Part shown: one piece after another, positions 12,088 through 29,443 of the stretch | Layout: every line of letters begins with the position of its first letter | How positions within the stretch are numbered: the stretch's first letter is position 1 | Source: Ktedonobacterales bacterium | GTDB taxonomy: Bacteria; Chloroflexota; Ktedonobacteria; Ktedonobacterales; JADMIN01 | Direction of reading: 5' to 3' | Assembly: GCA_030167145.1 (NCBI GenBank) | Contig: CP126532.1 | Coordinates: 4,920,001 to 4,952,000, forward strand | DNA length: 32,000 bases | Notes under the pieces: model-generated | What the model saw: only the letters and a program-made list of their open reading frames with translations | Told to the model about the DNA's origin: nothing | Databases searched by the model: none | Program-made: the position numbers and the translations under genes

Positions 12088-13225
12088 CTAAAGCCGTTAT
12101 GTACACATAAGGCATTCAGCACGAGGCTGAAGATGCCCGATTGCCCATAGTTTTTGCCGATTTCGCTCTCGCGCCACCCGTCCACGTTCACAACCTGAAT
12201 GTTAGATACGGAACAGATAGCCCTTTCAGAACAGTGATCAGTTGACTTCACTGTGCCCAGCCGATCACCAATGCTTCAATCACGCTTCAATGATGTGGCA
12301 GGGCAAACAACGCTCTGCTGGCAGTCTCGCATGCCGGAGCGACGATCAAGCGACGCTCTTCGGTAGCGCAATCGCGATCACGAAAGGGGGAAAGATAACC
12401 CAGGGACCATCAACTACCGCGAGCCGTTCAGGCGTAGGCCTCGCTTAGGGGTGCGAGCCGCTCATACGCGGAACGTCTCAGTCGCGCTCTTCGGCGAGCG
12501 CATGATGGCACTGTCTCTTGCCCATCGAGACGGGTGCTTTGACCGGGAACTCACGCCGGTCACATCTCTCGCAGTGCGAGACGTGACCACTCTACGGCAG
12601 ATCCGTGAGGAGGATCAAACGTGGGCTCGCGTGGGAGAATGTGTACTCTCCCTGAATTGGGCTGTGCGCGAGCGGACGCTCCACTTCACCTGCCGGGCGG
12701 AGTGAGTCGGGTACGTACAAGGCTTGGTAACCTGGCAATACAGTTTGAGGTACGTTTGCCGTTCGTCTATCGTAACCCGGTGTTCGCTGCAAACCGATGC
12801 TCTTTAGTTGGAAAGTTCGCGGACGAGCGTTGCGATACCGCCGCAACACATTCCGCAGCCCTACATGGGTGATATGCGCCTGAACCAGCGGCAAATACAC
12901 CTAGCGGACTATTGCACATTGCGTGCCAGCTTGAGCCGAGCGACGCAGCACATATGTCAACTATATCCCATGTGGCTACAGGCTACCACACTTATGACAG
13001 ACGCGCAAGCGTTCCACGTGGCCCAACAGTATCATTCGTCTATGGCTTGTCGCGACATGTGCCAAGCAAGGTGAGCGTGGCGGCAAGCGGAAGCGTTGCG
13101 AGACGGTGCGTGGGTATTGTCCTATCGGAGTCATGGGCCAGGCCTGTGTTGTACAATGCCAAGGTTACAGCGCCACCAGGGCAGCGCAACGGCGCACACC
13201 CATCATATAGAGGGATTTGCTTATC
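12088..13225. other. 1.1-kb ORF-free, lower-GC, hairpin-dense intergenic region (candidate structured RNA or decayed element)
   Basis: Only short (under 115 aa) ORFs in all six frames, with non-protein-like composition, and none has an SD. There are multiple strong local stems: 12484-12501, 12541-12561, 12558-12588, 12600-12616, and nested 12625-12673. The element cgctcttcgg is duplicated at 12354 and 12485. Confidence 0.55.
12097..12110. promoter_or_regulatory. AT-rich 14-bp palindrome upstream of prkA
   Basis: TTATGT-AC-ACATAA lies 34-47 nt upstream of the prkA start, in an otherwise GC-rich context. Confidence 0.3.
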
Positions 13226-20074: not shown

Positions 20075-21244
20075 TTATGCCTGGGTACGTTTGCGGCGGG
20101 GGCCGCGCCGGACCGTGGCGAACCACACGTACACCGCGCCGACCCAGCCGACGAAGAGGGCGATGATCGTGGTGGCGACGCCGGTGGCGCTGGTCCACGT
20201 GCCGGTGGGCAGCGCGAAGGCGGCGGGGTTGGTGACGGCGGCATAGACGCCGGAGATGCCCAGGATGGTGAAGCCGTTGGCGGCGAGGAGCCAGAGCGTG
20301 ACCCAGTAGGCGAATGCGAGCGATGCGCGACCCCACCAGAGCGCGGCGAGAAGTAGCGCCGCGCCCCCGCCGAGCAGAATCTCTATCGCGTGGAGTCCGG
20401 CGAGGGGATCGAATGCGGTAGTGTTGGCGAGGATGCCGTAGCTGGCGGCACTGCTGTAGGTGATGCCGGTGCAGTGGCCGATGAGCAGTGGCGTAGCGCT
20501 ACAGTTGAGCGTGGCCCAGGGGAAGAGGAACGTGCCAGCCGCCCATAGCGCGATGGCCAGGGTGAGCAAGCTCTTGGCGGCGGCGCGCAACTGGCCGTGT
20601 GGCTGCGCTTCTGTGGTGGTGGGCGTACCCCGGCGGGCGGTCCGCGAAAGGGCTACATCAGCGCCAATCACGAGTGCGGCGAGTAATGTGAGCACTGCAA
20701 TGAAGCCAAGCAACCAATCTGGTGTAAGGAATCGGGGGGTACTGGTAACGTTCAGCGTACTCGGATTGAGATTAGCGTTGAGCGCGAGTGTAGTGCCCGG
20801 TAGTATTGTGTGTGCGTCAAGGGATGTGCCAGAGATAGCTAAACCTATCGCGAAGGCCACATAGCCGAGGAGGCCGAGCAACGTGATAAGAGATCGCCTT
20901 CTGGACCACACCAGCGGCAGCATGAGCAGGCCGAAAACCGTCAGCGCGCTCCAGCCGAACGTGCCCAGGAATGCCCCATCTATATCGCCTGGCGTGAGCC
21001 GCAGCGTATACACCTGTTGCTGGCTGTCGGTTCCGGTGACGACGACGCTGGGCATCCAGGCGACAACAGGCGCGAGGACGGCGGCGCACGTGGCGAGGAG
21101 CAAGCCCACCGCGCGGAAGGGGAAGCGGTGTTTGCGCTCGGCGACGGGCCAGCGCGGCGCGGATGCTTCTACCTGCGTCGCGGGCGGGCGTCCACCGGAC
21201 GCCCCTACCTGTTCGCCGCTCTCGTTGGCGCTCATATCGCTCAT
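20075..21244 (-). CDS. polytopic membrane protein of unknown function
   Basis: ATG 21244 (MSDMSANESG) is preceded by GAGGGGG with 7-nt spacing. The product has at least 8 hydrophobic segments. No family recognised. Confidence 0.65.
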   Translation of the reverse strand: MSDMSANESGEQVGASGGRPPATQVEASAPRWPVAERKHRFPFRAVGLLLATCAAVLAPVVAWMPSVVVTGTDSQQQVYTLRLTPGDIDGAFLGTFGWSALTVFGLLMLPLVWSRRRSLITLLGLLGYVAFAIGLAISGTSLDAHTILPGTTLALNANLNPSTLNVTSTPRFLTPDWLLGFIAVLTLLAALVIGADVALSRTARRGTPTTTEAQPHGQLRAAAKSLLTLAIALWAAGTFLFPWATLNCSATPLLIGHCTGITYSSAASYGILANTTAFDPLAGLHAIEILLGGGAALLLAALWWGRASLAFAYWVTLWLLAANGFTILGISGVYAAVTNPAAFALPTGTWTSATGVATTIIALFVGWVGAVYVWFATVRRGPRRKRTQA

Positions 21245-21375
21245 GGTGTCACCCCCTCTATCCTCCCGCGCGGATACGTCTCGTTGACGTGCGCCACCAG
21301 TGTACACGAGCGGCGGGCGAAATGGTAGGGCGAGGGTGATGAGGACCCATGTTCTGCGTCCCTCCGCACAGCTTC

Positions 21376-21448
21376 CATACATCCGCACAGCTTCCATACA
21401 TCCGCACCTCATGGAGGTGCGTGCCTATGGAGACGTTGCGGATGTATG
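21376..21448. repeat. left 73-bp four-site palindromic module (12-7-12-11-12-7-12)
   Basis: The four sites are CATACATCCGCA (21376-87), CATACATCCGCA (21395-406), TGCGTGCCTATG (21418-29) and TGCGGATGTATG (21437-48). The first two sit in a 19-bp tandem repeat (CATACATCCGCACAGCTTC, 2.7 copies starting at about 21362). The whole folds as an imperfect long hairpin centred on GCACCTC-ATG-GAGGTGC. Confidence 0.85.
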
Positions 21449-21491
21449 AGGAACCGCGCGATCCGCCGCGCTGTCTGGAGCGCTAAGATGT

Positions 21492-23771
21492 CTAGGATGT
21501 CTTCGCCGCACTTTCCGCGACAGGATTGCCGGGCAGCGACAGATACCATGCCCCAGCCCTTCCAAACCCGCGCTGCTCTTTGACGACGGCGAGTTCTTTT
21601 CGCGCCCGCTCCAGTGTTCCATCGCTGATACCCCATGCAGTCGCCTCCGCCAGGACTTCCTTGGCGCTGCGTGGCCCATCCGCCAGCGTTTCGCGCAAGA
21701 ATGCCCTCGCCTGCCCCCGTTTGCTCTCGTCGTCGTTGCCCGCTTCCATCTGCGCGCGCAGGAGCGTATCGGCGCTGAGCGTGACGGCGCCACGCCACTC
21801 GATATGCGGCGCCTCCTCACCCTCCTGTGCATCCTCGGCAGCATCGGCATCCTCGGCAGCATCGGGCGGGGGCGCGCTCACCACCGCATAGCGCCAGGAG
21901 GGCGGGGGCGCGCCCAGGTTGCTCTTGGTGCTGGCCAGGATGCGCTCGTGTTCCGGGTCGTCGGGCGACTTCGCCACCAGCAGCCCCGACCGCGCCGCGC
22001 CGATGATGCCAATCGAGCCGCCGCCGCGATACAGTGCGTTCGCGCCGCCGCCTTTGGTCAGGTGTCGCACCACCACCACAGCGATGCCCAATGCTTCGGC
22101 CATCTGGTTCAGCGGGGCCAGCGCCGCACGTATATCCTGGTCGCGCCACGAGTTCACCCCGCCATCCAGGTACGCCATCAAGGGGTCAATCACCAGCAGC
22201 TTCGCCCCCACGCGCCGGATCTCGCGTTTCAGCCGCGCGATGTCGGTTGGCAGGGTCCAACTGCGCTCGATAACACGCCCACTCACCGGATCGCGCAGGC
22301 GCAGTGTACGCGGCGCGACAATCCGCGTCACATCCGCGCCCGCCGCCTCCAAACGCGGGCGAATCGTGCTGGCCAGGTCGTCTTCGGCGGAGAGCAGCAC
22401 CACCCCCGCTGGCTCGGTCAACCCGACCGTGCCATCGGGCATCGCGCGCCCCGTCGTCACCCGCGCCGCCAGATCGAGCGCCACCAGCGATTTGCCAAGC
22501 CCAGGGTCGCCATCCATCACGGTCAGCTTGCCCAGCGGGATGCGCCCCGGCCACAGCCAGCGCAGCTCCTCCGCCGCCACCTCCGAGACCAGCGGACTCA
22601 CCACATACACGCCGTCGTCCTCGGCTTCGGCATCGGCGTCCGCGCCGACAGACAAGAATGTCTGTCCTACCTGTATCTGCTCAGTGGGGCGGACATTCCT
22701 GTCTGCCTGCTCTCCATGCGCCAGCCCCAACCACGCGCGCACCTGCGCCACAATGCCCGCACCGACAGACACGAATGTCTGTCCTACCTGTGGGGCGGAC
22801 ATTCCTGTCTGCCCGCCACGCAGCCGCTCGGCCAGCCCATGCGCGCCCAGCACCGGCTCGCCGCGTCGCAGCCGCTCGGCGGTGTGTTCCGCCTTGCCAC
22901 CGCGCGCGCGCCACTCCTCATCGCCCGCCACCCGCGCCACCACCCGCACGAACTGATCGGTCTCTGGCACCGACCAGCCGCCCCGCAGCAGCAGGCCGGT
23001 CAGTGCCAGCGCCGCCTCATCGCGGCTGCCCACCCCCGGCCAGTGCCGCGCCAAGAGCGCCGCCGCCGCCACTTTCGCCACCGCCCGCCGCAGCGCCGCG
23101 CCGTCTATCGTCGCCGGGTCGCCGTCCTGCTCCCAGCGCACCCGATCGCCGCTGGGATGCAGCGAGGGCGGGGCCAGCGTCTGGCAGCCGGTGGAGCGCA
23201 GCTCGACGAGCATCGTCTGGTGGCCCACCTCTCCCCCCAGCCCCCTCCCCGGCGCAGGGAGGGGGCGTGCTAGCTCCCCTTCCCTGGTCGGGCCGCGCGG
23301 TGCTAGCTCCCCTTCCCTGGTCGGGAGGGGGTTGGGGGGTAGGTGCTCCCCCATCCAGGCGAACTTGCATGTCAGCGGGGGCAGCCCCTCCTCCGCCGCC
23401 TCGACCTCGCGTTCGACCACATACCAATAGTGGCTGCGTGGCGCGCCCTTGCGCCCCGAAATGCGCGCGGTCGGCGGCAGCAGCGCGGCAGCGGCGTCGG
23501 CGGCCTCCGGCGCATCACAATCCACCTCCACCAACCCGCCGCTTGGCCCGCCCAAGAGCAGCCCCAGGTTGTGCGCCTTCGCGCCCCCCGCGAACCAGCG
23601 CGGTAGCTCTTCGGGAATGAAGCGGGTCTGCGTCCACTTGGCCTGCGCCGGAATCTTCGTGCCGGGCCGCAGCGGAATCACCCGCCAGCCCCACGCCGCA
23701 TACGCCAGCGCCGCCGCCAGCGGGTCGGTCGCGCGCAGCGGCTGCATCCCTGCTGTGTCCTTCGTCTCCAT
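21492..23771 (-). CDS. bifunctional primase-polymerase (PrimPol) / RepA-like AAA_25 helicase / C-terminal wHTH replication protein
   Basis: The N-terminus has PrimPol motifs: AAWGWRVIPLRPGTKIP, the DxD motif LVEVDCD, SGRKGAPRSHYWY and ELRSTGCQTLAPPSLHPSG. The centre has Walker A (DGDPGLGKS), Walker B (LLVIDPL) and VVVVRHLTKGG. The C-terminus is HTH-like (AKEVLAEATAWGISDGTLERARKEL). The ORF is continuous and carries several repeat-derived inserts. Confidence 0.85.
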   Translation of the reverse strand: METKDTAGMQPLRATDPLAAALAYAAWGWRVIPLRPGTKIPAQAKWTQTRFIPEELPRWFAGGAKAHNLGLLLGGPSGGLVEVDCDAPEAADAAAALLPPTARISGRKGAPRSHYWYVVEREVEAAEEGLPPLTCKFAWMGEHLPPNPLPTREGELAPRGPTREGELARPLPAPGRGLGGEVGHQTMLVELRSTGCQTLAPPSLHPSGDRVRWEQDGDPATIDGAALRRAVAKVAAAALLARHWPGVGSRDEAALALTGLLLRGGWSVPETDQFVRVVARVAGDEEWRARGGKAEHTAERLRRGEPVLGAHGLAERLRGGQTGMSAPQVGQTFVSVGAGIVAQVRAWLGLAHGEQADRNVRPTEQIQVGQTFLSVGADADAEAEDDGVYVVSPLVSEVAAEELRWLWPGRIPLGKLTVMDGDPGLGKSLVALDLAARVTTGRAMPDGTVGLTEPAGVVLLSAEDDLASTIRPRLEAAGADVTRIVAPRTLRLRDPVSGRVIERSWTLPTDIARLKREIRRVGAKLLVIDPLMAYLDGGVNSWRDQDIRAALAPLNQMAEALGIAVVVVRHLTKGGGANALYRGGGSIGIIGAARSGLLVAKSPDDPEHERILASTKSNLGAPPPSWRYAVVSAPPPDAAEDADAAEDAQEGEEAPHIEWRGAVTLSADTLLRAQMEAGNDDESKRGQARAFLRETLADGPRSAKEVLAEATAWGISDGTLERARKELAVVKEQRGFGRAGAWYLSLPGNPVAESAAKTS
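21829..21864. repeat. perfect 18-bp tandem duplication inside the replicase gene
   Basis: gcatcctcggcagcatcg occurs twice (21829-46, 21847-64). It is in-frame and encodes DAAEDADAAEDA. Confidence 0.9.
22647..22707. repeat. composite hairpin repeat, copy 1 (hairpin A + hairpin B)
   Basis: Hairpin A is GACAGACA-AGAA-TGTCTGTC (22647-66), followed by CTACCTGT and then an 11-nt insert. Hairpin B is GGCGGACA-TTCC-TGTCTGCC (22688-707). It lies inside the replicase CDS. Confidence 0.85.
22764..22814. repeat. composite hairpin repeat, copy 2
   Basis: Hairpin A is GACAGACA-CGAA-TGTCTGTC (22764-83), followed by CTACCTGT and then hairpin B, GGGGCGGACATTCCTGTCTGCCC (22792-814). It is near-identical to copy 1 but lacks the 11-nt insert. 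Confidence 0.85.
23241..23343. repeat. cluster of G/C-rich palindromic repeats inside the PrimPol domain
   Basis: There is a 9-bp stem, CCCCCTCCC (23241-49) with GGGAGGGGG (23257-65). A 26-bp direct repeat gtgctagctccccttccctggtcggg occurs at 23267-92 and 23300-25, with a 33-nt period. The terminal unit is CTCCCCTTCCCTGGTCGGGAGGGGGTTGGGGGGTAGG (23307-43). Confidence 0.85.
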
Positions 23772-23825
23772 GGCTCATTCCTTCCCCTCACCCAGTCCAC
23801 CCAGTCCACCCATTTCGCGCCCAGT

Positions 23826-23848
23826 GGGGCGGACATTCTTGTCTGCCC
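23826..23848. repeat. hairpin B, copy 3 (intergenic)
   Basis: GGGGCGGACATTCTTGTCTGCCC lies between the small ORF stop (23884) and the replicase start (23771). It is flanked by a 9-nt tandem CCAGTCCAC x2 (23792-23809). Confidence 0.8.
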
Positions 23849-23883
23849 GCCCCCTGCTCGCCTCATGTACTCCGGCAGCCTCC

Positions 23884-24363
23884 CTACGGTGCGCGCAGCC
23901 GTGGACCTTGCATCGAGACGAACAGCTTTTGATCCTTGTCGGAAATCTTGACCATGTCCAAGATGAAGGTGAAATCGCTGAAGTCCGACCACTCATCCCC
24001 TGCTTCGAGCGCCTCAAGCTCCACGCTTGGCTCGGCCCACCCCCGCGGGCCAGCCTTCGGGGGCGTGTAACGGTGCAGCATGAGATTCACCACAGATATC
24101 CTCTTCGTGCTCGGCCCCTGGCGCGAGAGCAGTAGCGCACGCAACGTCACCGCATATGCCATCTCCGCCGCCTCGCGTGCGATCTGCTCCATCCACGGCA
24201 ACACCTCGCGCTTCGCCAGCACCGGCGCCACCCGCGAGTATTCGCTCTTGTACAGATCTCGCCAGGTCGCGCGATGGCGGGGCGGTTTCCCTTTCGCCTG
24301 TGCCCGCCCGCTGCGCTCACGTTGTTGGTTTCGCTCGTCTCGCTCGTCTTGCTCGTTTCGCAT
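23884..24363 (-). CDS. hypothetical 159-aa protein, first gene of the replicase cassette
   Basis: ATG 24363 (MRNEQDERDERNQQRER...) is preceded by AGGAG with 9-nt spacing. It has a charged N-terminus and then a helical region. The track start at 24531 would read through repeat copy Y. No family recognised. Confidence 0.55.
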   Translation of the reverse strand: MRNEQDERDERNQQRERSGRAQAKGKPPRHRATWRDLYKSEYSRVAPVLAKREVLPWMEQIAREAAEMAYAVTLRALLLSRQGPSTKRISVVNLMLHRYTPPKAGPRGWAEPSVELEALEAGDEWSDFSDFTFILDMVKISDKDQKLFVSMQGPRLRAP

Positions 24364-24407
24364 CGCCGTCCACTCCTGTCTCTCACTGGCCCACGCGCGG
24401 CTCTGCT

Positions 24408-24444
24408 CTCCCCTGCCCTCGTAGGGAAGGGGCCGGGGGTTAGG
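24408..24444. repeat. G/C-rich palindromic repeat, dispersed copy
   Basis: CTCCCCTGCCCTCGTAGGGAAGGGGCCGGGGGTTAGG is about 80% identical to 23307-23343. It lies in the predicted 5' leader of the small ORF. Confidence 0.75.
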
Positions 24445-24574
24445 TTCCTCCCGAAAACGACAAAGCGCCGCCCCATCCCCGCAAGAGCCAGGCAGGTAGG
24501 GGCGCATGCCATGCGCCCGCCAGGCCAGCAAGGGATAGAGCGGCGCCTATACTCAGGCTCACCGCGCAAACTTC

Positions 24575-24596
24575 AGCTCACATCAGCATATGAGCT
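24575..24596. promoter_or_regulatory. inverted repeat at the predicted transcription start of the cassette
   Basis: AGCTCA (24575-80) and TGAGCT (24591-96) are separated by a 10-nt spacer, immediately downstream (minus strand) of the predicted -10. Confidence 0.35.
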
Positions 24597-24604
24597 TGCG
24601 AACA

Positions 24605-24633
24605 AGTATAGAACATATTTTCTATTATTTCAA
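24605..24633 (-). promoter_or_regulatory. near-consensus sigma70 promoter in an AT-rich island, driving the small ORF/replicase cassette
   Basis: Minus strand reads TTGAAA (24633-24628), a 17-nt spacer (taatagaaaatatgttc), then TATACT (24610-24605). It is embedded in the most AT-rich ~40 bp of the window. Confidence 0.55.
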
Positions 24634-24675
24634 GTGTGCCCTGGCCATCCGATCAATTTCTGCCCTCGGACACCC

Positions 24676-24748
24676 CATAGGTCCGCAACATCCTCATAGA
24701 CCCGCATGCAGTTGAGATGCGGACCTATGGGGTGGATGCGGACCTATG
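24676..24748. repeat. right 73-bp four-site palindromic module (12-7-12-11-12-7-12)
   Basis: The four sites are CATAGGTCCGCA (24676-87), CATAGACCCGCA (24695-706), TGCGGACCTATG (24718-29) and TGCGGACCTATG (24737-48). The spacing is identical to the left module, and it aligns with the reverse complement of 21361-21455, including the outer TATGGAAG. Confidence 0.85.
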
Positions 24749-24790
24749 GAAGACACATGGAGTTGGCGTGGTCCACAGGTCGGGTTGCGG

Positions 24791-26335
24791 TCAGCCAGGC
24801 AGGCACAGGCCGGGGGCGCAGAGGCCAGGGAACGCCAGCGTGCGCGTCTCGCCGCTGGGCAGGGAGACGACGCGTATCGTGGAGTTATTGGTATCGGCGA
24901 CGTAGAGCGCGCCAGCGGCATAGCTCAGCCCGCCCGGCTCGCTGAAACGCGCGTCACTCGCCGCCCCATCCGCGTCGCCAGGCATGCCCGCGCCCGCCAG
25001 CGTCGTCACCTCGCGCGTGGTGGGATGCAGCAGCTTCAGCTTGTGGTTATACGTATCGGCGATGGCGACGTAGCCGCCACTCGGCGCGCCTTCGGCAATC
25101 CACGCCACACCCAGGGGATGTTGTAGGCGCGCGTAATCGCCCTTGCCGTCGTGGTCGCCGAACTGGAAGAGGTCGCCGCCCGCCAGCGTCCGCACGATGG
25201 GCGGGCCATCCAGCGAAACGGCGCGGATGCTGCTAATCTCACTGTCGGCCACGAAGAGCCGCGCGCCGTCGCTCGCCAGACCGCTGGGCTGGGCCAGCGC
25301 GGCCATCTCCGCTGGGCCGTCGTTGCGCCCCTCCGCGCCGCTGCCCGCGAAGACGCCCACCGTCTCCTCCGCCGGATCGTAGACCCAGATTTGGTGCAGC
25401 CCGGCCATCGCCATGTAGAGCGTGCCATTGACCAGCGCCACGTCCCACGGCGAATTCAGCGGCGTCGCGCGGGCCGCTCCGCTCCCACGGCGCTGGAAGC
25501 CCTGCGCGCCCGTCCCGGCAATCGTCGTGACGGTTCGTGCGCCCAGGTCCACACGGCGCAGCAGATGATTGCCCGTATCCGCGACATAGAGCCAGCCATG
25601 CTCGCTGTCGAGCGCCATCCCCTGCGGCGAGCGGAAGCTGGCCGTATCGTAGTCGCCATCCTCCGCGCCTGGCTCGCTGGAGCCAATCGTCGCGTAGTCC
25701 GTGCCGTCCAGCGCGGCGTGTACCAGCCGGTGATGTCCGGTATCGGCGATGTAGAGGCGTCCACTCGCTTCGTCGGCCAGCGCCTTGCCAGGATAGAGCA
25801 GTGGCGAGAAGGGCGACAGCGCGCCAGTTTCGGCTTCCAGGCGTAGCGGCAGTGGCGTCGCGTCCAGCGCGCCTGCCTCCGCCAGCAAGTCGAGCGCCTG
25901 CCCGATGGCTGTATCCAGCGCATCGCGATGTCCCTCGCCAGACACCTGACCCAAAATGTAGCCGTTGGGGTCAACCAGCACCAGCGTGGGCCAGCCGCGC
26001 ACCGCATAGGCGTCCCAGGTGCGGCGACCGCTATCCAGCACGATCGGATGGGTGATGCCGTAGCGCGCAGTCGCCTGGCGCACGCTCTCGGCGTTGTCTT
26101 CGTTGGTGAATTTCGGGGAGTGGACGCCGACCACAACGAAGGGCCGGTCGGCATATTTGTGTTCGAGATACTTCAGGTCTTCGAGGACGTGCAGGCAATT
26201 GATACAGCAATACGTCCAGAAGTCCAGCAGCACCAGCTTGCCGCGCAGGTCCGCCAGCGTGAGCGGACGTTCAGTATTCAGCCAGGCCGTGCCACGCAAC
26301 TCCGGCGCGCGCACTGGCTCATCTCCCAAAGTCAT
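24791..26335 (-). CDS. thioredoxin-like (redoxin) domain fused to NHL-repeat beta-propeller (NHLRC2-like)
   Basis: The N-terminus has GKLVLLDFWTYCCINCLHV, GVHSPKF and GWPTLVLVD. This is followed by repeated NHL-type units (P.G.A......LYVADTGNH.....). ATG 26335 is preceded by GGAAGGAGG with 6-nt spacing. Confidence 0.85.
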   Translation of the reverse strand: MTLGDEPVRAPELRGTAWLNTERPLTLADLRGKLVLLDFWTYCCINCLHVLEDLKYLEHKYADRPFVVVGVHSPKFTNEDNAESVRQATARYGITHPIVLDSGRRTWDAYAVRGWPTLVLVDPNGYILGQVSGEGHRDALDTAIGQALDLLAEAGALDATPLPLRLEAETGALSPFSPLLYPGKALADEASGRLYIADTGHHRLVHAALDGTDYATIGSSEPGAEDGDYDTASFRSPQGMALDSEHGWLYVADTGNHLLRRVDLGARTVTTIAGTGAQGFQRRGSGAARATPLNSPWDVALVNGTLYMAMAGLHQIWVYDPAEETVGVFAGSGAEGRNDGPAEMAALAQPSGLASDGARLFVADSEISSIRAVSLDGPPIVRTLAGGDLFQFGDHDGKGDYARLQHPLGVAWIAEGAPSGGYVAIADTYNHKLKLLHPTTREVTTLAGAGMPGDADGAASDARFSEPGGLSYAAGALYVADTNNSTIRVVSLPSGETRTLAFPGLCAPGLCLPG

Positions 26336-29171: not shown

Positions 29172-29256
29172 GTAGGGCGGGGGGGACTCGAACCCCCACG
29201 CGGCTTTCGCCGCAACGGATTTTAAGTCCGCTGTGTCTGCCATTCCACCACCGCCC
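29172..29256 (-). tRNA. tRNA-Leu (anticodon UAA), class II with long variable arm
   Basis: Hand-folded 85-nt cloverleaf. Acceptor stem is GGGGCGG/CCGCCCU (G1-U72 wobble). D-stem is GTG/CAC, with D-loop GAATGGCAGA. Anticodon stem is GCGGA/TCCGT, with loop CT-TAA-AA. Variable arm is GCGGC-GAAA-GCCGC. T-arm is GGGGG-TTCGAGT-CCCCC. The discriminator is A, and CCA is not encoded. Confidence 0.93.
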
Positions 29257-29443
29257 CGCGGCACAAGCTGTGCGCCATCAGCATAGCACATGGCATGCCC
29301 CCGCGATACCTGCCAGCATGCGCCACATCAGGCAAGAATACTCTGCCACCCTGCACAAACAGCCGCCCCGCGCAAGGCAACGGTACTCCCGTCCCGTGCG
29401 AGTCCTAGCCCCTCTTGCGCTGCGCCGGCTTGCCGTTCCGGCG

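What the first reader, a model, noticed from the sequence alone, without database searches (positions are those of the whole stretch)
21361..24748. Two-gene PrimPol/helicase cassette bracketed by matching palindromic modules: candidate integrated mini-replicon or novel mobile element
A 159-aa ORF and a 759-aa PrimPol + RepA-like (AAA_25) helicase + wHTH protein form one minus-strand unit. It is driven by a near-consensus promoter in an AT-rich island. The unit is bracketed by two 73-bp modules with identical 12-7-12-11-12-7-12 site architecture in inverted orientation. No integrase or transposase is present. As I recall it, the layout resembles the archaeal pRN1 replication operon: a small DNA-binding protein, then a prim-pol/helicase/wH replicase, with a stem-loop origin just downstream of the replicase. 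Here the left module is an imperfect ~90-nt hairpin 44 bp after the replicase stop. The segment is also the only part of the window loaded with small palindromic repeats. Flanking genes are housekeeping. The cassette could be a domesticated or decaying plasmid or satellite replicon, or an element type mobilised in trans.
Basis: partly seen in the sequence, partly recalled or inferred. Interest (0 to 1): 0.8.

Follow-up and report, generated by a model that had tools for sequence, protein, structure and literature searches.

The report
SOS-controlled primase-helicase replication cassette
A chromosome segment of a Ktedonobacterales bacterium carries a compact plasmid- or satellite-style replication unit: a DNA-damage-controlled promoter, a fused primase-helicase, and two arrays of its probable binding sites. 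The two flanking "modules" belong to that replication machinery and do not mark the ends of a jumping element.

Summary
Window 21492-23771(-) encodes a Prim-Pol + AAA_25 (RSF1010 RepA-like) helicase with a predicted C-terminal winged helix. It is preceded by a 159-aa ORFan and a TTGAAA-17-TATACT promoter, and flanked by two 75-bp arrays (21375-21449, 24675-24749). Each array has four YCATA-N4-CGCA 13-mers arranged -> -> (11 nt) <- <-.

New results:
- Six other distinct Ktedonobacterales loci (L001, L002, L005, L014, L108, L110) share the same promoter with a LexA-type GAAC-N4-GTTC box abutting the -10. All also share a conserved terminator-like leader hairpin.
- Each of these loci carries arrays of the same architecture built from locus-specific but related 13-mers. 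Five have two clear arrays; the second in L002 is weak. The arrays usually lie inside the gene (interdomain linker and 3' tail). Phage-like contigs have one directly after the helicase/wH region.

The modules are therefore most likely cognate iteron/origin arrays, as in SaPI pri-rep-ori, pRN1 and P4. They are not element termini.

No integrase, att site, dif site or target duplication was found. Mobility and autonomous replication remain untested: the source genome was absent from both scannable collections, and synteny with relatives is gone. Verdict: new variant of a known kind, moderately interesting.

The parts
24675..24749 (.). Right (promoter-proximal) iteron array. Sites: CCATAGGTCCGCA, TCATAGACCCGCA, then inverted CCATAGGTCCGCA x2. 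It ends 41 nt after the NHL-thioredoxin gene stop and lies about 40 bp upstream of the -35.
24605..24633 (-). Promoter TTGAAA-17-TATACT. A LexA (Cheo)-type box GAAAATATGTTC (24611-24622) abuts the -10.
   Evidence: promoter; the same box in the same register in L001, L002, L005, L014, L108 and L110. In the regex it occurred nowhere else in the 1.5 Mb of loci held at that point.
24451..24563 (-). Conserved leader: GGTGAGCC-GAA, then a long GC-rich hairpin, then a U-run (terminator/attenuator-like).
   Evidence: G.U pairs fit only the sense RNA. In L002 only 25 nt separate the hairpin from the PrimPol ATG.
24405..24440 (.). REP-type small hairpin (CCCCTGCCCTCGTAGGGAAGGGG) between the leader and ORF159.
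   Evidence: I6, I22
23884..24363 (-). ORF159, a small fast-evolving ORF. It is an ORFan. Relatives have an ORF of 134-150 aa in the same position with only marginal similarity.
23824..23850 (.). Single REPIN-type element (GTGGGGCGGACATTCTTGTCTGCC) in the ORF159-PrimPol intergenic region.
21492..23771 (-). 759-aa replicase. Domains: AEP Prim-Pol (aa 21-220), helical domain (aa ~224-316), linker, RecA/RepA-like AAA_25 helicase (aa ~400-650), and predicted winged helix (aa ~685-745). Catalytic D84/D86, S113/H114, and Walker A (G421-K427) and Walker B (D529) residues are conserved.
   Evidence: RSF1010 RepA 1nlf, TMt 0.64
22640..22813 (.). Two tandem REPIN-like doublets (GACAGACAnGAATGTCTGTC / GGCGGACATTCCTGTCTGCC) inserted in frame in the primase-helicase linker. 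Relatives carry their mid-gene iteron array at this position.
   Evidence: (D1, D4); low-pLDDT segments 321-333 and 353-392
23233..23340 (.). REP-type hairpins inserted in frame in a loop of the AEP domain.
   Evidence: D8, I13; low-pLDDT segment 144-182
21375..21449 (.). Left (replicase 3') iteron array. Sites: CCATACATCCGCA x2, then inverted CCATAGGCACGCA and TCATACATCCGCA. It starts 42 nt after the replicase stop and folds as a 75-95-nt hairpin.

Best explanation
The segment is a self-contained replication module of the plasmid/phage-satellite kind, embedded in the chromosome of a Ktedonobacterales bacterium.

Proposed mechanism:
- Transcription starts at a strong promoter whose -10 is abutted by a LexA-type operator, so it is repressed until DNA damage (inferred).
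- It must then read through a conserved terminator-like leader hairpin (inferred attenuation).
- The product is a small variable protein and a fused primase-polymerase / RepA-like hexameric helicase with a C-terminal winged helix.
- The two 75-bp modules are the cognate iteron arrays of this protein. Two 13-mers on each side point in opposite directions, the geometry on which self-loading initiator helicases (SaPI Rep) are thought to load one hexamer per side. The PrimPol domain would then prime.
- One array, directly 3' of the gene, corresponds to the ori of SaPI and pRN1. The second would be a second or auxiliary origin (P4 crr-like) or an autoregulatory site beside the promoter.

The arrays belong to the replicase and do not mark element ends.

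Shown: the domain architecture; conservation of the promoter, LexA-type box and leader in 7 distinct loci; and co-occurrence and positional conservation of the four-site arrays with this protein family.

Inferred: LexA binding, attenuation, winged-helix-iteron binding, origin firing, and whether the unit still replicates.
For: Domains.

Promoter, box and leader.
- The promoter with the GAAC-N4-GTTC-type box abutting the -10, and the leader, are conserved in the window, L001, L002, L005, L014, L108 and L110.
- The exact box is otherwise almost absent from the loci held at that point.
- GAAC-N4-GTTC is the LexA motif of Firmicutes and Actinobacteria (PMC3323433).

Arrays.
- A blind scan of 1.4 Mb for the -> -> gap <- <- 13-mer architecture hit the window's promoter-side array, one or two arrays in each of the six relatives, and viral contigs L030, L043 and L061. 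Other hits of comparable or lower score were a collagen-like tandem repeat (L067) and a few weaker matches elsewhere. The window's 3' array fell below that scan's threshold and is established.
- A per-locus census shows sites with at least 11/13 identity clustered in two arrays per locus in the window, L001, L005, L014, L108 and L110; L002's second array is only partial.
- A lower-threshold scan of 35 viral loci gave 12 hits. Six of them (L030, L032, L037, L045, L043, L061; L037 and L045 carry the same array) lie within -17 to +129 nt of the end of the helicase/wH homology.
- By my own alignment of the-85 sites, the 13-mers form one family, roughly CRWAGRnSCKCA.
- In L005 the direct sites of the two arrays fall in different reading frames, and inverted copies cannot encode the same peptide. 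The conservation is therefore at DNA level.

Precedents.
- SaPI Reps use a C-terminal winged helix to bind iterons lying immediately downstream of rep, with at least two on each side pointing in opposite directions (PMC9371898).
- The pRN1 origin is a stem-loop 54 bp after the replicase stop (PMC4234260).
- P4 alpha has the primase-helicase-winged-helix layout (PMC2777425).
Against: - No binding, induction or replication data exist.
- The 11-bp centres of the arrays are not AT-rich (CCTCATGGAGG, TGCAGTTGAGA), unlike SaPI ori.
- The left array is the most degenerate of all arrays found.
- No integrase, partition or packaging gene is in the window, so the unit may be a relic or a domesticated host gene.
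- The role of the second array is unexplained.
- The window's arrangement (both arrays outside the ORF, one upstream of the promoter) is unique among the 7 loci.
- Other copies of the array elsewhere in the 5.07-Mb source genome could not be excluded.
- Most viral relatives scanned (about 29 of 35) show no array of this architecture next to the helicase gene.
- A similar array in viral contig L111 has no helicase homolog within 8 kb.
Confidence: 0.6

Rival explanations
1. The modules are recombination sites or termini of an integrase-less mobile element mobilised in trans. This would be IMEX-like (using host Xer), or a mini-plasmid integrated through its origin array so that the two arrays act as attL and attR.
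For: The two arrays bracket exactly the foreign-looking operon, and no recombinase is encoded. GC skew flips sign at the left array, a terminus-like pattern. The window arrangement is a circular permutation of the L001 arrangement (array - cargo - array).
Against: In five relatives both arrays lie inside the replicase ORF. Such a position cannot be an element end. No dif-like sequence was found. No target duplication was seen by inspection of the flanks. The arrays are not hybrids of each other: the centre tetranucleotides are module-specific and the spacers are unrelated. The strong skew of the cassette is intrinsic to the gene in all loci.
Confidence: 0.1
2. The arrays are transcriptional operators rather than origins. 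The winged helix of the replicase, or ORF159, would bind them to autoregulate the operon (right array beside the promoter). At the 3' end binding would terminate or roadblock transcription and regulate the downstream membrane-protein gene.
For: The right array lies about 40 bp upstream of the -35. The left array lies about 130 nt upstream of the next gene's start at 21244. Both ORF159 and the exact 13-mers are lineage-specific.
Against: In relatives the arrays lie within coding sequence, far from promoters. L002 has no small ORF at all, yet it has an array. The four-site inverted geometry directly after a helicase-winged-helix gene is the hallmark of initiator-helicase origins.
Confidence: 0.15
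3. The modules are ordinary genome-wide REP/REPIN-type palindromes, or U-less terminator hairpins, that happen to flank the cassette.
For: Both lie 41-42 nt after the stop codon of a minus-strand gene and fold stably as RNA. The cassette is a hotspot for other REP-type insertions.
Against: The similarity between the two modules is confined to the 13-mers and their spacing, and the spacers are unrelated. The same architecture travels with the helicase gene across distant genomes and viral contigs. There are no other copies in the 32-kb window. Neither has a U-run, and the terminator scan found nothing.
Confidence: 0.05
4. The cassette is a domesticated host SOS gene: a damage-induced repriming primase-helicase that no longer functions as a replicon. 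The arrays would be evolutionary leftovers or play another role.
For: Seven distinct loci all lack integrase and structural genes, yet keep an intact ORF, the LexA-type box and the leader at about 50% protein identity.
Against: The arrays are maintained in every locus, each with locus-specific 13-mers (five of the seven as clear pairs), which argues for ongoing selection on protein-site recognition. TerL and defence-type genes accompany the gene in four relatives. The closest annotated relatives are phage and plasmid replication proteins.
Confidence: 0.1

Closest known systems
SaPI/PICI replication module (pri-rep-ori; PriRep5 of SaPI5)
   Same: Primase fused or adjacent to a self-loading initiator helicase with a C-terminal winged helix. 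Iterons lie immediately downstream of the rep ORF, with at least two on each side pointing in opposite directions. Iteron specificity is element-specific (PMC9371898).
   Different: - The SaPI paper compares its Reps with the MCM group and the SF3/SF6 helicases; here the helicase is RecA/RepA-like AAA_25.
- The primase here is an AEP Prim-Pol.
- Iterons are 13-mers, not 5-6-mers.
- There is no AT-rich centre.
- A second array is present.
- There is no integrase, Stl-type repressor or packaging gene in the window.
- The control element looks LexA-type.
pRN1 minimal replicon (orf56/orf904 + 3' stem-loop origin)
   Same: A small upstream ORF co-transcribed with a Prim-Pol/helicase/winged-helix replicase, a short essential promoter region, and a ~100-nt stem-loop about 50 bp after the stop that acts as origin. 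Total size is about 3.1 kb, versus 3.4 kb here (PMC4234260).
   Different: - The pRN1 helicase is SF3 (D5_N/COG3378) (PMC2777425); here it is AAA_25.
- The pRN1 stem-loop has no recognisable iterons.
- pRN1 is a free archaeal plasmid.
- ORF159 has no detectable similarity to any protein, including CopG-like ORF56.
Satellite phage P4 alpha protein with ori and crr
   Same: Primase-helicase-winged-helix in one polypeptide (PMC2777425). From my own knowledge, not checked here: two separated iteron clusters (ori and crr) several kb apart are bound by the C-terminal domain, and the alpha operon is controlled by premature transcription termination in its leader.
   Different: P4 has a DnaG-type primase and an SF3 helicase. 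It also has an integrase, immunity RNA and capsid-size genes. No sequence similarity to P4 alpha was detected.
Lambda O/ori (origin iterons inside the initiator gene's linker)
   Same: In five relatives an iteron array sits in the coding region for a flexible interdomain linker of the initiator. From my own knowledge, the lambda origin has four iterons inside gene O.
   Different: In the window both arrays are outside the ORF. O is not a helicase.
RSF1010 RepA helicase
   Same: It gave the highest target-normalised TM-score among the listed structural matches to the helicase domain (1nlf, TMt 0.64, E 3.8e-9), and the domain matches Pfam AAA_25.
   Different: From my own knowledge, RSF1010 has separate RepB' primase and RepC initiator proteins, and ssi hairpins in oriV.

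Membership tests
PICI/SaPI-type satellite | Primase plus initiator helicase with a C-terminal winged helix | tested here: met
   Prim-Pol + AAA_25. Winged-helix topology in the AF2 model at aa 685-745. The fold classes differ from SaPI Rep.
PICI/SaPI-type satellite | Iteron ori immediately 3' of rep, with at least 2 iterons on each side in opposite orientation | tested here: met
   The left array starts 42 nt after the stop, with 2+2 inverted 13-mers.
PICI/SaPI-type satellite | AT-rich melting region at the centre of the ori | tested here: not met
   The central spacers are 11 bp, CCTCATGGAGG and TGCAGTTGAGA.
PICI/SaPI-type satellite | Integrase and att sites; excision | tested here: not met
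   No integrase or recombinase domain in the ORFs tested in the 32-kb window. No direct repeats flank the segment beyond the arrays.
PICI/SaPI-type satellite | Packaging/capsid-redirection genes and helper-phage induction | tested here: not met
   None in the window. TerL is present near homologs in L001, L014, L015 and L108. Induction is not testable.
pRN1-type replicon | Prim-Pol (PF09250) N-terminal domain | tested here: met
pRN1-type replicon | SF3 (D5_N/COG3378) helicase | tested here: not met
   The helicase is AAA_25, RecA/RepA-like.
pRN1-type replicon | Large stem-loop about 50 bp downstream of the replicase stop, required for replication | tested here: inconclusive
   A hairpin is present at the right place (z -7.3). 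Whether it is required is not testable.
pRN1-type replicon | Co-transcribed small repressor (ORF56, CopG-like) | tested here: inconclusive
   A small ORF is present but is an ORFan. The AF2 model has pLDDT 44.
IMEX (Xer-dependent integrated element) | Flanked by dif-like 28-bp XerC/XerD sites | tested here: not met
   No dif-like sequence was found. The 13-mers are arranged 13-11-13, not 11-6-11.
IMEX (Xer-dependent integrated element) | Located at the replication terminus | tested here: inconclusive
   A skew flip from + to - occurs at about 21.3 kb. Only 32 kb is visible, and the cassette's own skew is intrinsic to the gene.
LexA (SOS) regulon, Gram-positive-type box | GAAC-N4-GTTC palindrome overlapping the promoter | tested here: met
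   The window has GAAAATATGTTC, one mismatch. The box is exact in L001, L002 and L108, and sits in the same register in all 7 loci. The motif is defined in PMC3323433.
LexA (SOS) regulon, Gram-positive-type box | LexA binding and damage induction | not testable with these tools
   No lexA or recA locus of this genome was available for motif comparison.
REP/REPIN dispersed repeats | Many dispersed copies per genome | not testable with these tools
   The source contig is absent from genome contigs and metagenome contigs. Both scans returned only unrelated 19-nt tandem repeats. There are two copies in the 32-kb window.

The most novel reading that the evidence does not exclude
The cassette represents an integrase-less family of SOS-triggered in-situ replicons in Ktedonobacterales. 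On DNA damage the primase-helicase would fire at its own arrays within the chromosome and over-replicate the locus. In relatives that also carry TerL and defence genes, this would amplify the adjacent cargo or feed headful packaging, in a lateral-transduction-like way. The window copy could be a 3.3-kb pRN1-sized mini-plasmid that entered the chromosome through its origin array, leaving one array at each end.
Probability: 0.2. Interest if true: 0.85.

Novelty: new variant of a known kind. Interest (0 to 1): 0.6.

Why it matters
If the reading is right, Ktedonobacterales chromosomes carry a recurrent minimal replication unit with four parts: an SOS-type operator, a leader attenuator, a primase-helicase, and usually paired iteron arrays. 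It has no integrase.

This gives a simple, testable system in a little-studied phylum. Two questions become testable: how a RepA-type helicase self-loads on a 2+2 inverted iteron array, and whether chromosomal loci can be locally over-replicated on DNA damage.

It also gives a practical annotation rule. A four-site 13-mer array with roughly 19-nt period, in or just after the gene, marks the probable origin for this AAA_25 + winged-helix family. That includes some phage and satellite contigs.

Tried and rejected
- Further copies of the modules. The pattern YCATARVHHCGCA-N6-YCATARVHHCGCA was scanned in genome contigs and metagenome contigs. Each returned 8 hits, all unrelated 19-nt tandem repeats without inverted partners.
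- Empty-site comparison. The nearest NHL-thioredoxin orthologs (70-75% identity) have entirely different neighbours (L025-L027). No empty site is available, and 'different locus in each genome' is weak evidence for mobility.
- ORF159. Exhaustive phmmer finds only itself. There are no Pfam, PHROG, NCBIfam or PADLOC hits. Single-sequence AF2 gives pLDDT 44. Similarity to the small ORFs in the same position is marginal.
- dif/Xer idea: no dif-like site.
- Rfam: no family for the leader or the modules.
- Solved structures by sequence: only weak RadA matches.
- Simple 9-mer repeat search in the flanks of homologs found no modules. This was misleading, because the arrays lie inside the genes and are imperfect. 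The architecture-based scan found them.
- Module orientation (direct versus inverted): indeterminate.
- CATAG-type iteron pair scanned in viral contigs: one hit (L111) with no helicase homolog within 8 kb. Uninformative.
- Anti-phage defence reading of the replicase: only a weak PADLOC hit (mad8, 2.5e-5, 53 aa). Rejected.

Full report
**What is there.** The window comes from a 5.07-Mb contig of a Ktedonobacterales MAG (JGI 3300045419, Ga0494333_323). On the minus strand, between a thioredoxin-NHL gene (24791-26335) and a 389-aa membrane-protein gene (20075-21244), lie two genes:
- a 159-aa ORF (23884-24363);
- a 759-aa ORF (21492-23771).

The large protein matches Prim-Pol (PF09250, 9.4e-23) and AAA_25 (PF13481, 1.7e-34). 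It also matches phage 'DNA polymerase/primase' PHROGs. An alignment with 21 homologs shows the AEP acidic and histidine motifs and the Walker A and B residues to be invariant.

An AlphaFold model built on that alignment has mean pLDDT 78.6. It shows an AEP domain, a helical domain, a RecA-type core and a C-terminal helix-helix-helix-strand-strand unit at 685-745, which is a winged-helix topology. Foldseek places the core with RAD51/RadA/DnaB, and RSF1010 RepA gives the highest target-normalised score (1nlf, TMt 0.64).

The only sigma-70-like promoter in 20900-25000 is TTGAAA-17-TATACT at 24633-24605. None of the large ORFs tested in the 32-kb window has an integrase or transposase domain. The neighbours are tRNA synthetases, PcrA/UvrD, PrkA/SpoVR, MTAP, a kinase and similar genes.

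**The modules.** The left module is 21375-21449 and the right module is 24675-24749.
- Each consists of four 13-mers YCATA-N4-CGCA: two direct, an 11-nt gap, then two inverted. The start-to-start spacing is 19 nt.
- The eight sites are the only matches with 0-1 mismatch in the window.
- Similarity between the two modules is confined to the 13-mers (42/52) and their spacing. The spacers match at chance level.
- The relative orientation cannot be told: 48/75 identities direct versus 50/75 inverted.
- Each module folds into a long hairpin (z -5.5 to -7.3).

Conserved sites and geometry with free spacers are what a protein-binding array looks like. A recently copied repeat would also share its spacers.

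**The cassette belongs to a family.** The best homologs are only about 50% identical and come from Ktedonobacterales MAGs. I fetched the contexts of seven of them. In six distinct loci (L001, L002, L005, L014, L108, L110) the gene sits among metabolic or housekeeping genes with no integrase. In all six, as in the window, it is preceded by the same promoter.

In that promoter a GAAC-N4-GTTC-type palindrome directly abuts the -10:
- window: GAAAATATGTTC-TATACT;
- L001: GAACGTTTGTTC-TATAGT;
- L002: GAACGCACGTTC-TATAGT;
- L108: GAACCCATGTTC-TATAGT;
- one-mismatch variants in L005, L014 and L110.

The box-plus-TATA pattern occurs nowhere else in the 1.5 Mb of loci held at that point, and the exact box is otherwise almost absent. 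GAAC-N4-GTTC is the LexA operator of Firmicutes and Actinobacteria (PMC3323433). From memory, the same motif was reported for a Chloroflexi LexA. SOS control is therefore the parsimonious reading, but it is inferred.

**The leader.** It begins 19-59 nt after the -10. It has the form GGTGAGCC-GAA, then a long GC-rich hairpin, then a U-run. Its sequence is conserved more strongly than ~50% protein identity would predict. Several stem positions are G.U pairs that work only in the sense RNA. In L002 just 25 nt separate it from the PrimPol ATG. Transcripts must therefore read through a terminator-like structure. No Rfam family matches it.

**The small ORF.** A small ORF follows in the window (159 aa), L001 (134 aa), L014 (146 aa) and L108 (150 aa). 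No comparable gene was called between the leader and PrimPol in L002 or L110, and L005 has only a doubtful 80-aa call.
- The L014 and L108 ORFs align closely with each other in a multiple alignment; L001 is marginally similar to the window's (E 8e-4) and to L014's (E 0.003); the window's and L014's ORFs show no detectable similarity.
- ORF159 has coding-type codon-position GC.
- It has no homolog among 1.84 billion representative proteins.
- Its structure model is uninformative.

**The key comparative result.** A first search for repeated 9-mers in the flanks of the homologs found nothing. A scan for the architecture itself looked for four 13-mers arranged -> -> gap <- <- with a period of 18-20 nt, over 1.4 Mb of fetched loci. 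It hit the window's promoter-side array, one or two arrays in each of the six relatives, and viral contigs L030, L043 and L061. The other hits of comparable or lower score were a collagen-like tandem repeat (L067) and a few weaker matches elsewhere. The window's left array fell below that scan's threshold and rests.

A census with locus-specific 13-mers shows that sites with at least 11/13 identity cluster in two arrays in six of the seven loci:

| Locus | Array positions |
|---|---|
| L005, L014, L108, L110 | One array in the region coding for the primase-helicase linker; the other in the 3' tail just after the winged-helix coding region |
| L002 | Clear 3' array at 12175-12245; only a partial mid-gene cluster |
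| L001 (closest homolog; its protein also lacks the C-terminal tail) | One array 26 nt after the stop; the other 3.8 kb further on, so that the pair brackets a Type ISP restriction gene just upstream of a terminase gene |
| Window | One array 42 nt after the stop; the other upstream of the promoter |

A lower-threshold scan of 35 viral contigs carrying the helicase + winged-helix part gave 12 hits. Six of them (L030, L032, L037, L045, L043, L061; L037 and L045 carry the same array) lie within -17 to +129 nt of the end of the homology. The other six lie elsewhere in those contigs.

By my own alignment, the 13-mers are related, with a consensus of roughly CRWAGRnSCKCA. L110 has CCATAGGCGCTCA against CCATAGGTCCGCA in the window. 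In L005 the direct sites of the two arrays fall in different reading frames, and inverted copies cannot encode the same peptide. The conservation is therefore at DNA level.

The arrays thus travel with the protein and occupy a fixed position relative to its DNA-binding domain. Their sequence varies while their geometry is kept. These are the properties of cognate iterons.

**Mechanism.** The geometry matches what is described for SaPI replication (PMC9371898):
- the Rep initiator helicase recognises iterons through a C-terminal winged helix;
- the iterons lie immediately downstream of the rep ORF;
- at least two on each side point in opposite directions;
- the proposed model loads one hexamer on each side;
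- in SaPI5 the primase and Rep are fused.

P4 alpha shares the primase-helicase-winged-helix layout (PMC2777425). From my own knowledge, P4 also has two separated iteron clusters, ori and crr.

I therefore read the left array as the origin. The right array would be a second or auxiliary origin, or an autoregulatory site. The whole unit would be an SOS-gated, attenuator-controlled replication module.

Differences from the models:
- a RecA/RepA-type rather than SF3 or AAA+ helicase;
- 13-mer iterons;
- no AT-rich centre;
- paired arrays;
- no integrase.

**What the modules are not.**
- They are not element termini, because in most relatives they lie inside the ORF.
- They do not contain a dif-like site.
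- They are not hybrids of one another.
- Neither has a U-run, and the terminator scan found nothing there.
- A REP/REPIN origin is unlikely for the reasons above. It could not be excluded by a genome-wide count, because the source contig is in neither scannable collection.

**Mobility and status.**
- The nearest orthologs of the flanking NHL-thioredoxin gene (70-75% identity) have different neighbours in every case. No empty site exists for comparison, and the different locations of the cassette in different genomes carry little weight.
- In four relatives a large-terminase gene lies 1-7 kb downstream, with TIR, TPR/NB-ARC or Type ISP restriction genes between.
- Viral contig L032 shows a fuller relative, with a repeat unit of about 10.3 kb: capsid, serine integrase, AAA_25 helicase with the array in its 3' tail, TerL and portal.

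The Ktedonobacterales cassettes therefore look like reduced derivatives of small phage- or satellite-type elements. Yet the reduced form itself is conserved: promoter, LexA-type box, leader, intact ORF and arrays. That argues for a maintained function rather than random decay. Whether that function is autonomous or in-situ replication, or a domesticated damage response, cannot be decided here.

**Verdict.** Its unusual features are the SOS-type control, the leader attenuator, the paired arrays that are often embedded in coding linkers, and the absence of an integrase.

Noticed in passing
window ~21200-21400 (whole-window trend 1-32000): GC skew of the + strand switches from positive to negative at the left array, giving a cumulative maximum (terminus-like pattern). 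Genes on both sides are on the minus strand. The replicase gene has an intrinsically high coding-strand skew in all 8 loci (0.09-0.19). Other loci show only a weak tendency for upstream skew to exceed downstream skew.
   Followed up: partly
window 22640-22813 and 23824-23850: There are five copies of a REPIN-like element (GACAGACAnGAATGTCTGTC / GGCAGACAGGAATGTCCGCC). All lie inside the cassette. Four are inserted in frame in the primase-helicase linker, where relatives carry their mid-gene iteron array. There are none elsewhere in the window or in the 109 loci from other genomes held at that point (only the source's own copy, L016, matched).
   Followed up: partly
window 23233-23340 and 24405-24440; L001 9752-9800, 11069-11589; L002 9720-9775, 12410-12440: REP-type 'CCCCTCCCC...GGGGAGGGG' hairpins are inserted in frame in loops and linkers of the replicase and in its flanks. 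The inserted segments coincide with low-pLDDT stretches of the model.
   Followed up: partly
L001 12679-18145; L014 12913-14844; L015 12976-20882; L108 10055-13064: In relatives a Terminase_6N (TerL) gene lies 1-7 kb downstream of the PrimPol-helicase. Between them are TIR, TPR/NB-ARC or Type ISP restriction-modification genes, which looks like a defence-cargo hotspot. In L001 the two iteron arrays bracket the restriction gene.
   Followed up: partly
L032 5742-16966: This viral contig has a repeat unit of about 10.3 kb: capsid, large serine recombinase, AAA_25 helicase with a perfect 4 x CGAAGGTGCTCAC array in its 3' tail, TerL and portal. It is a small phage or capsid-forming-satellite-like relative of the cassette.
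   Followed up: partly
L111 1680-1780: A low-GC viral contig carries CATAGATGCTCA x2 plus inverted copies next to a LexA-like AGAACATATGTTA. RecT/exonuclease-like genes are nearby, judged by eye from the translations rather than tested. No helicase homolog lies within 8 kb.
   Followed up: partly
window 12088-13216: A gap of about 1.1 kb without any ORF of 150 aa or more lies upstream of the pcrA/uvrD-like gene. It was not examined.
   Followed up: no
L005 9533-9646 (-): A SAM riboswitch (71 bits) lies about 500 nt upstream of a metX/metY-like fusion gene. That is an unusually long distance.
   Followed up: no
window 29173-29257 (-): A tRNA gene lies 4.4 kb from the cassette. It is not adjacent, so it is not an obvious integration target.
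   Followed up: no
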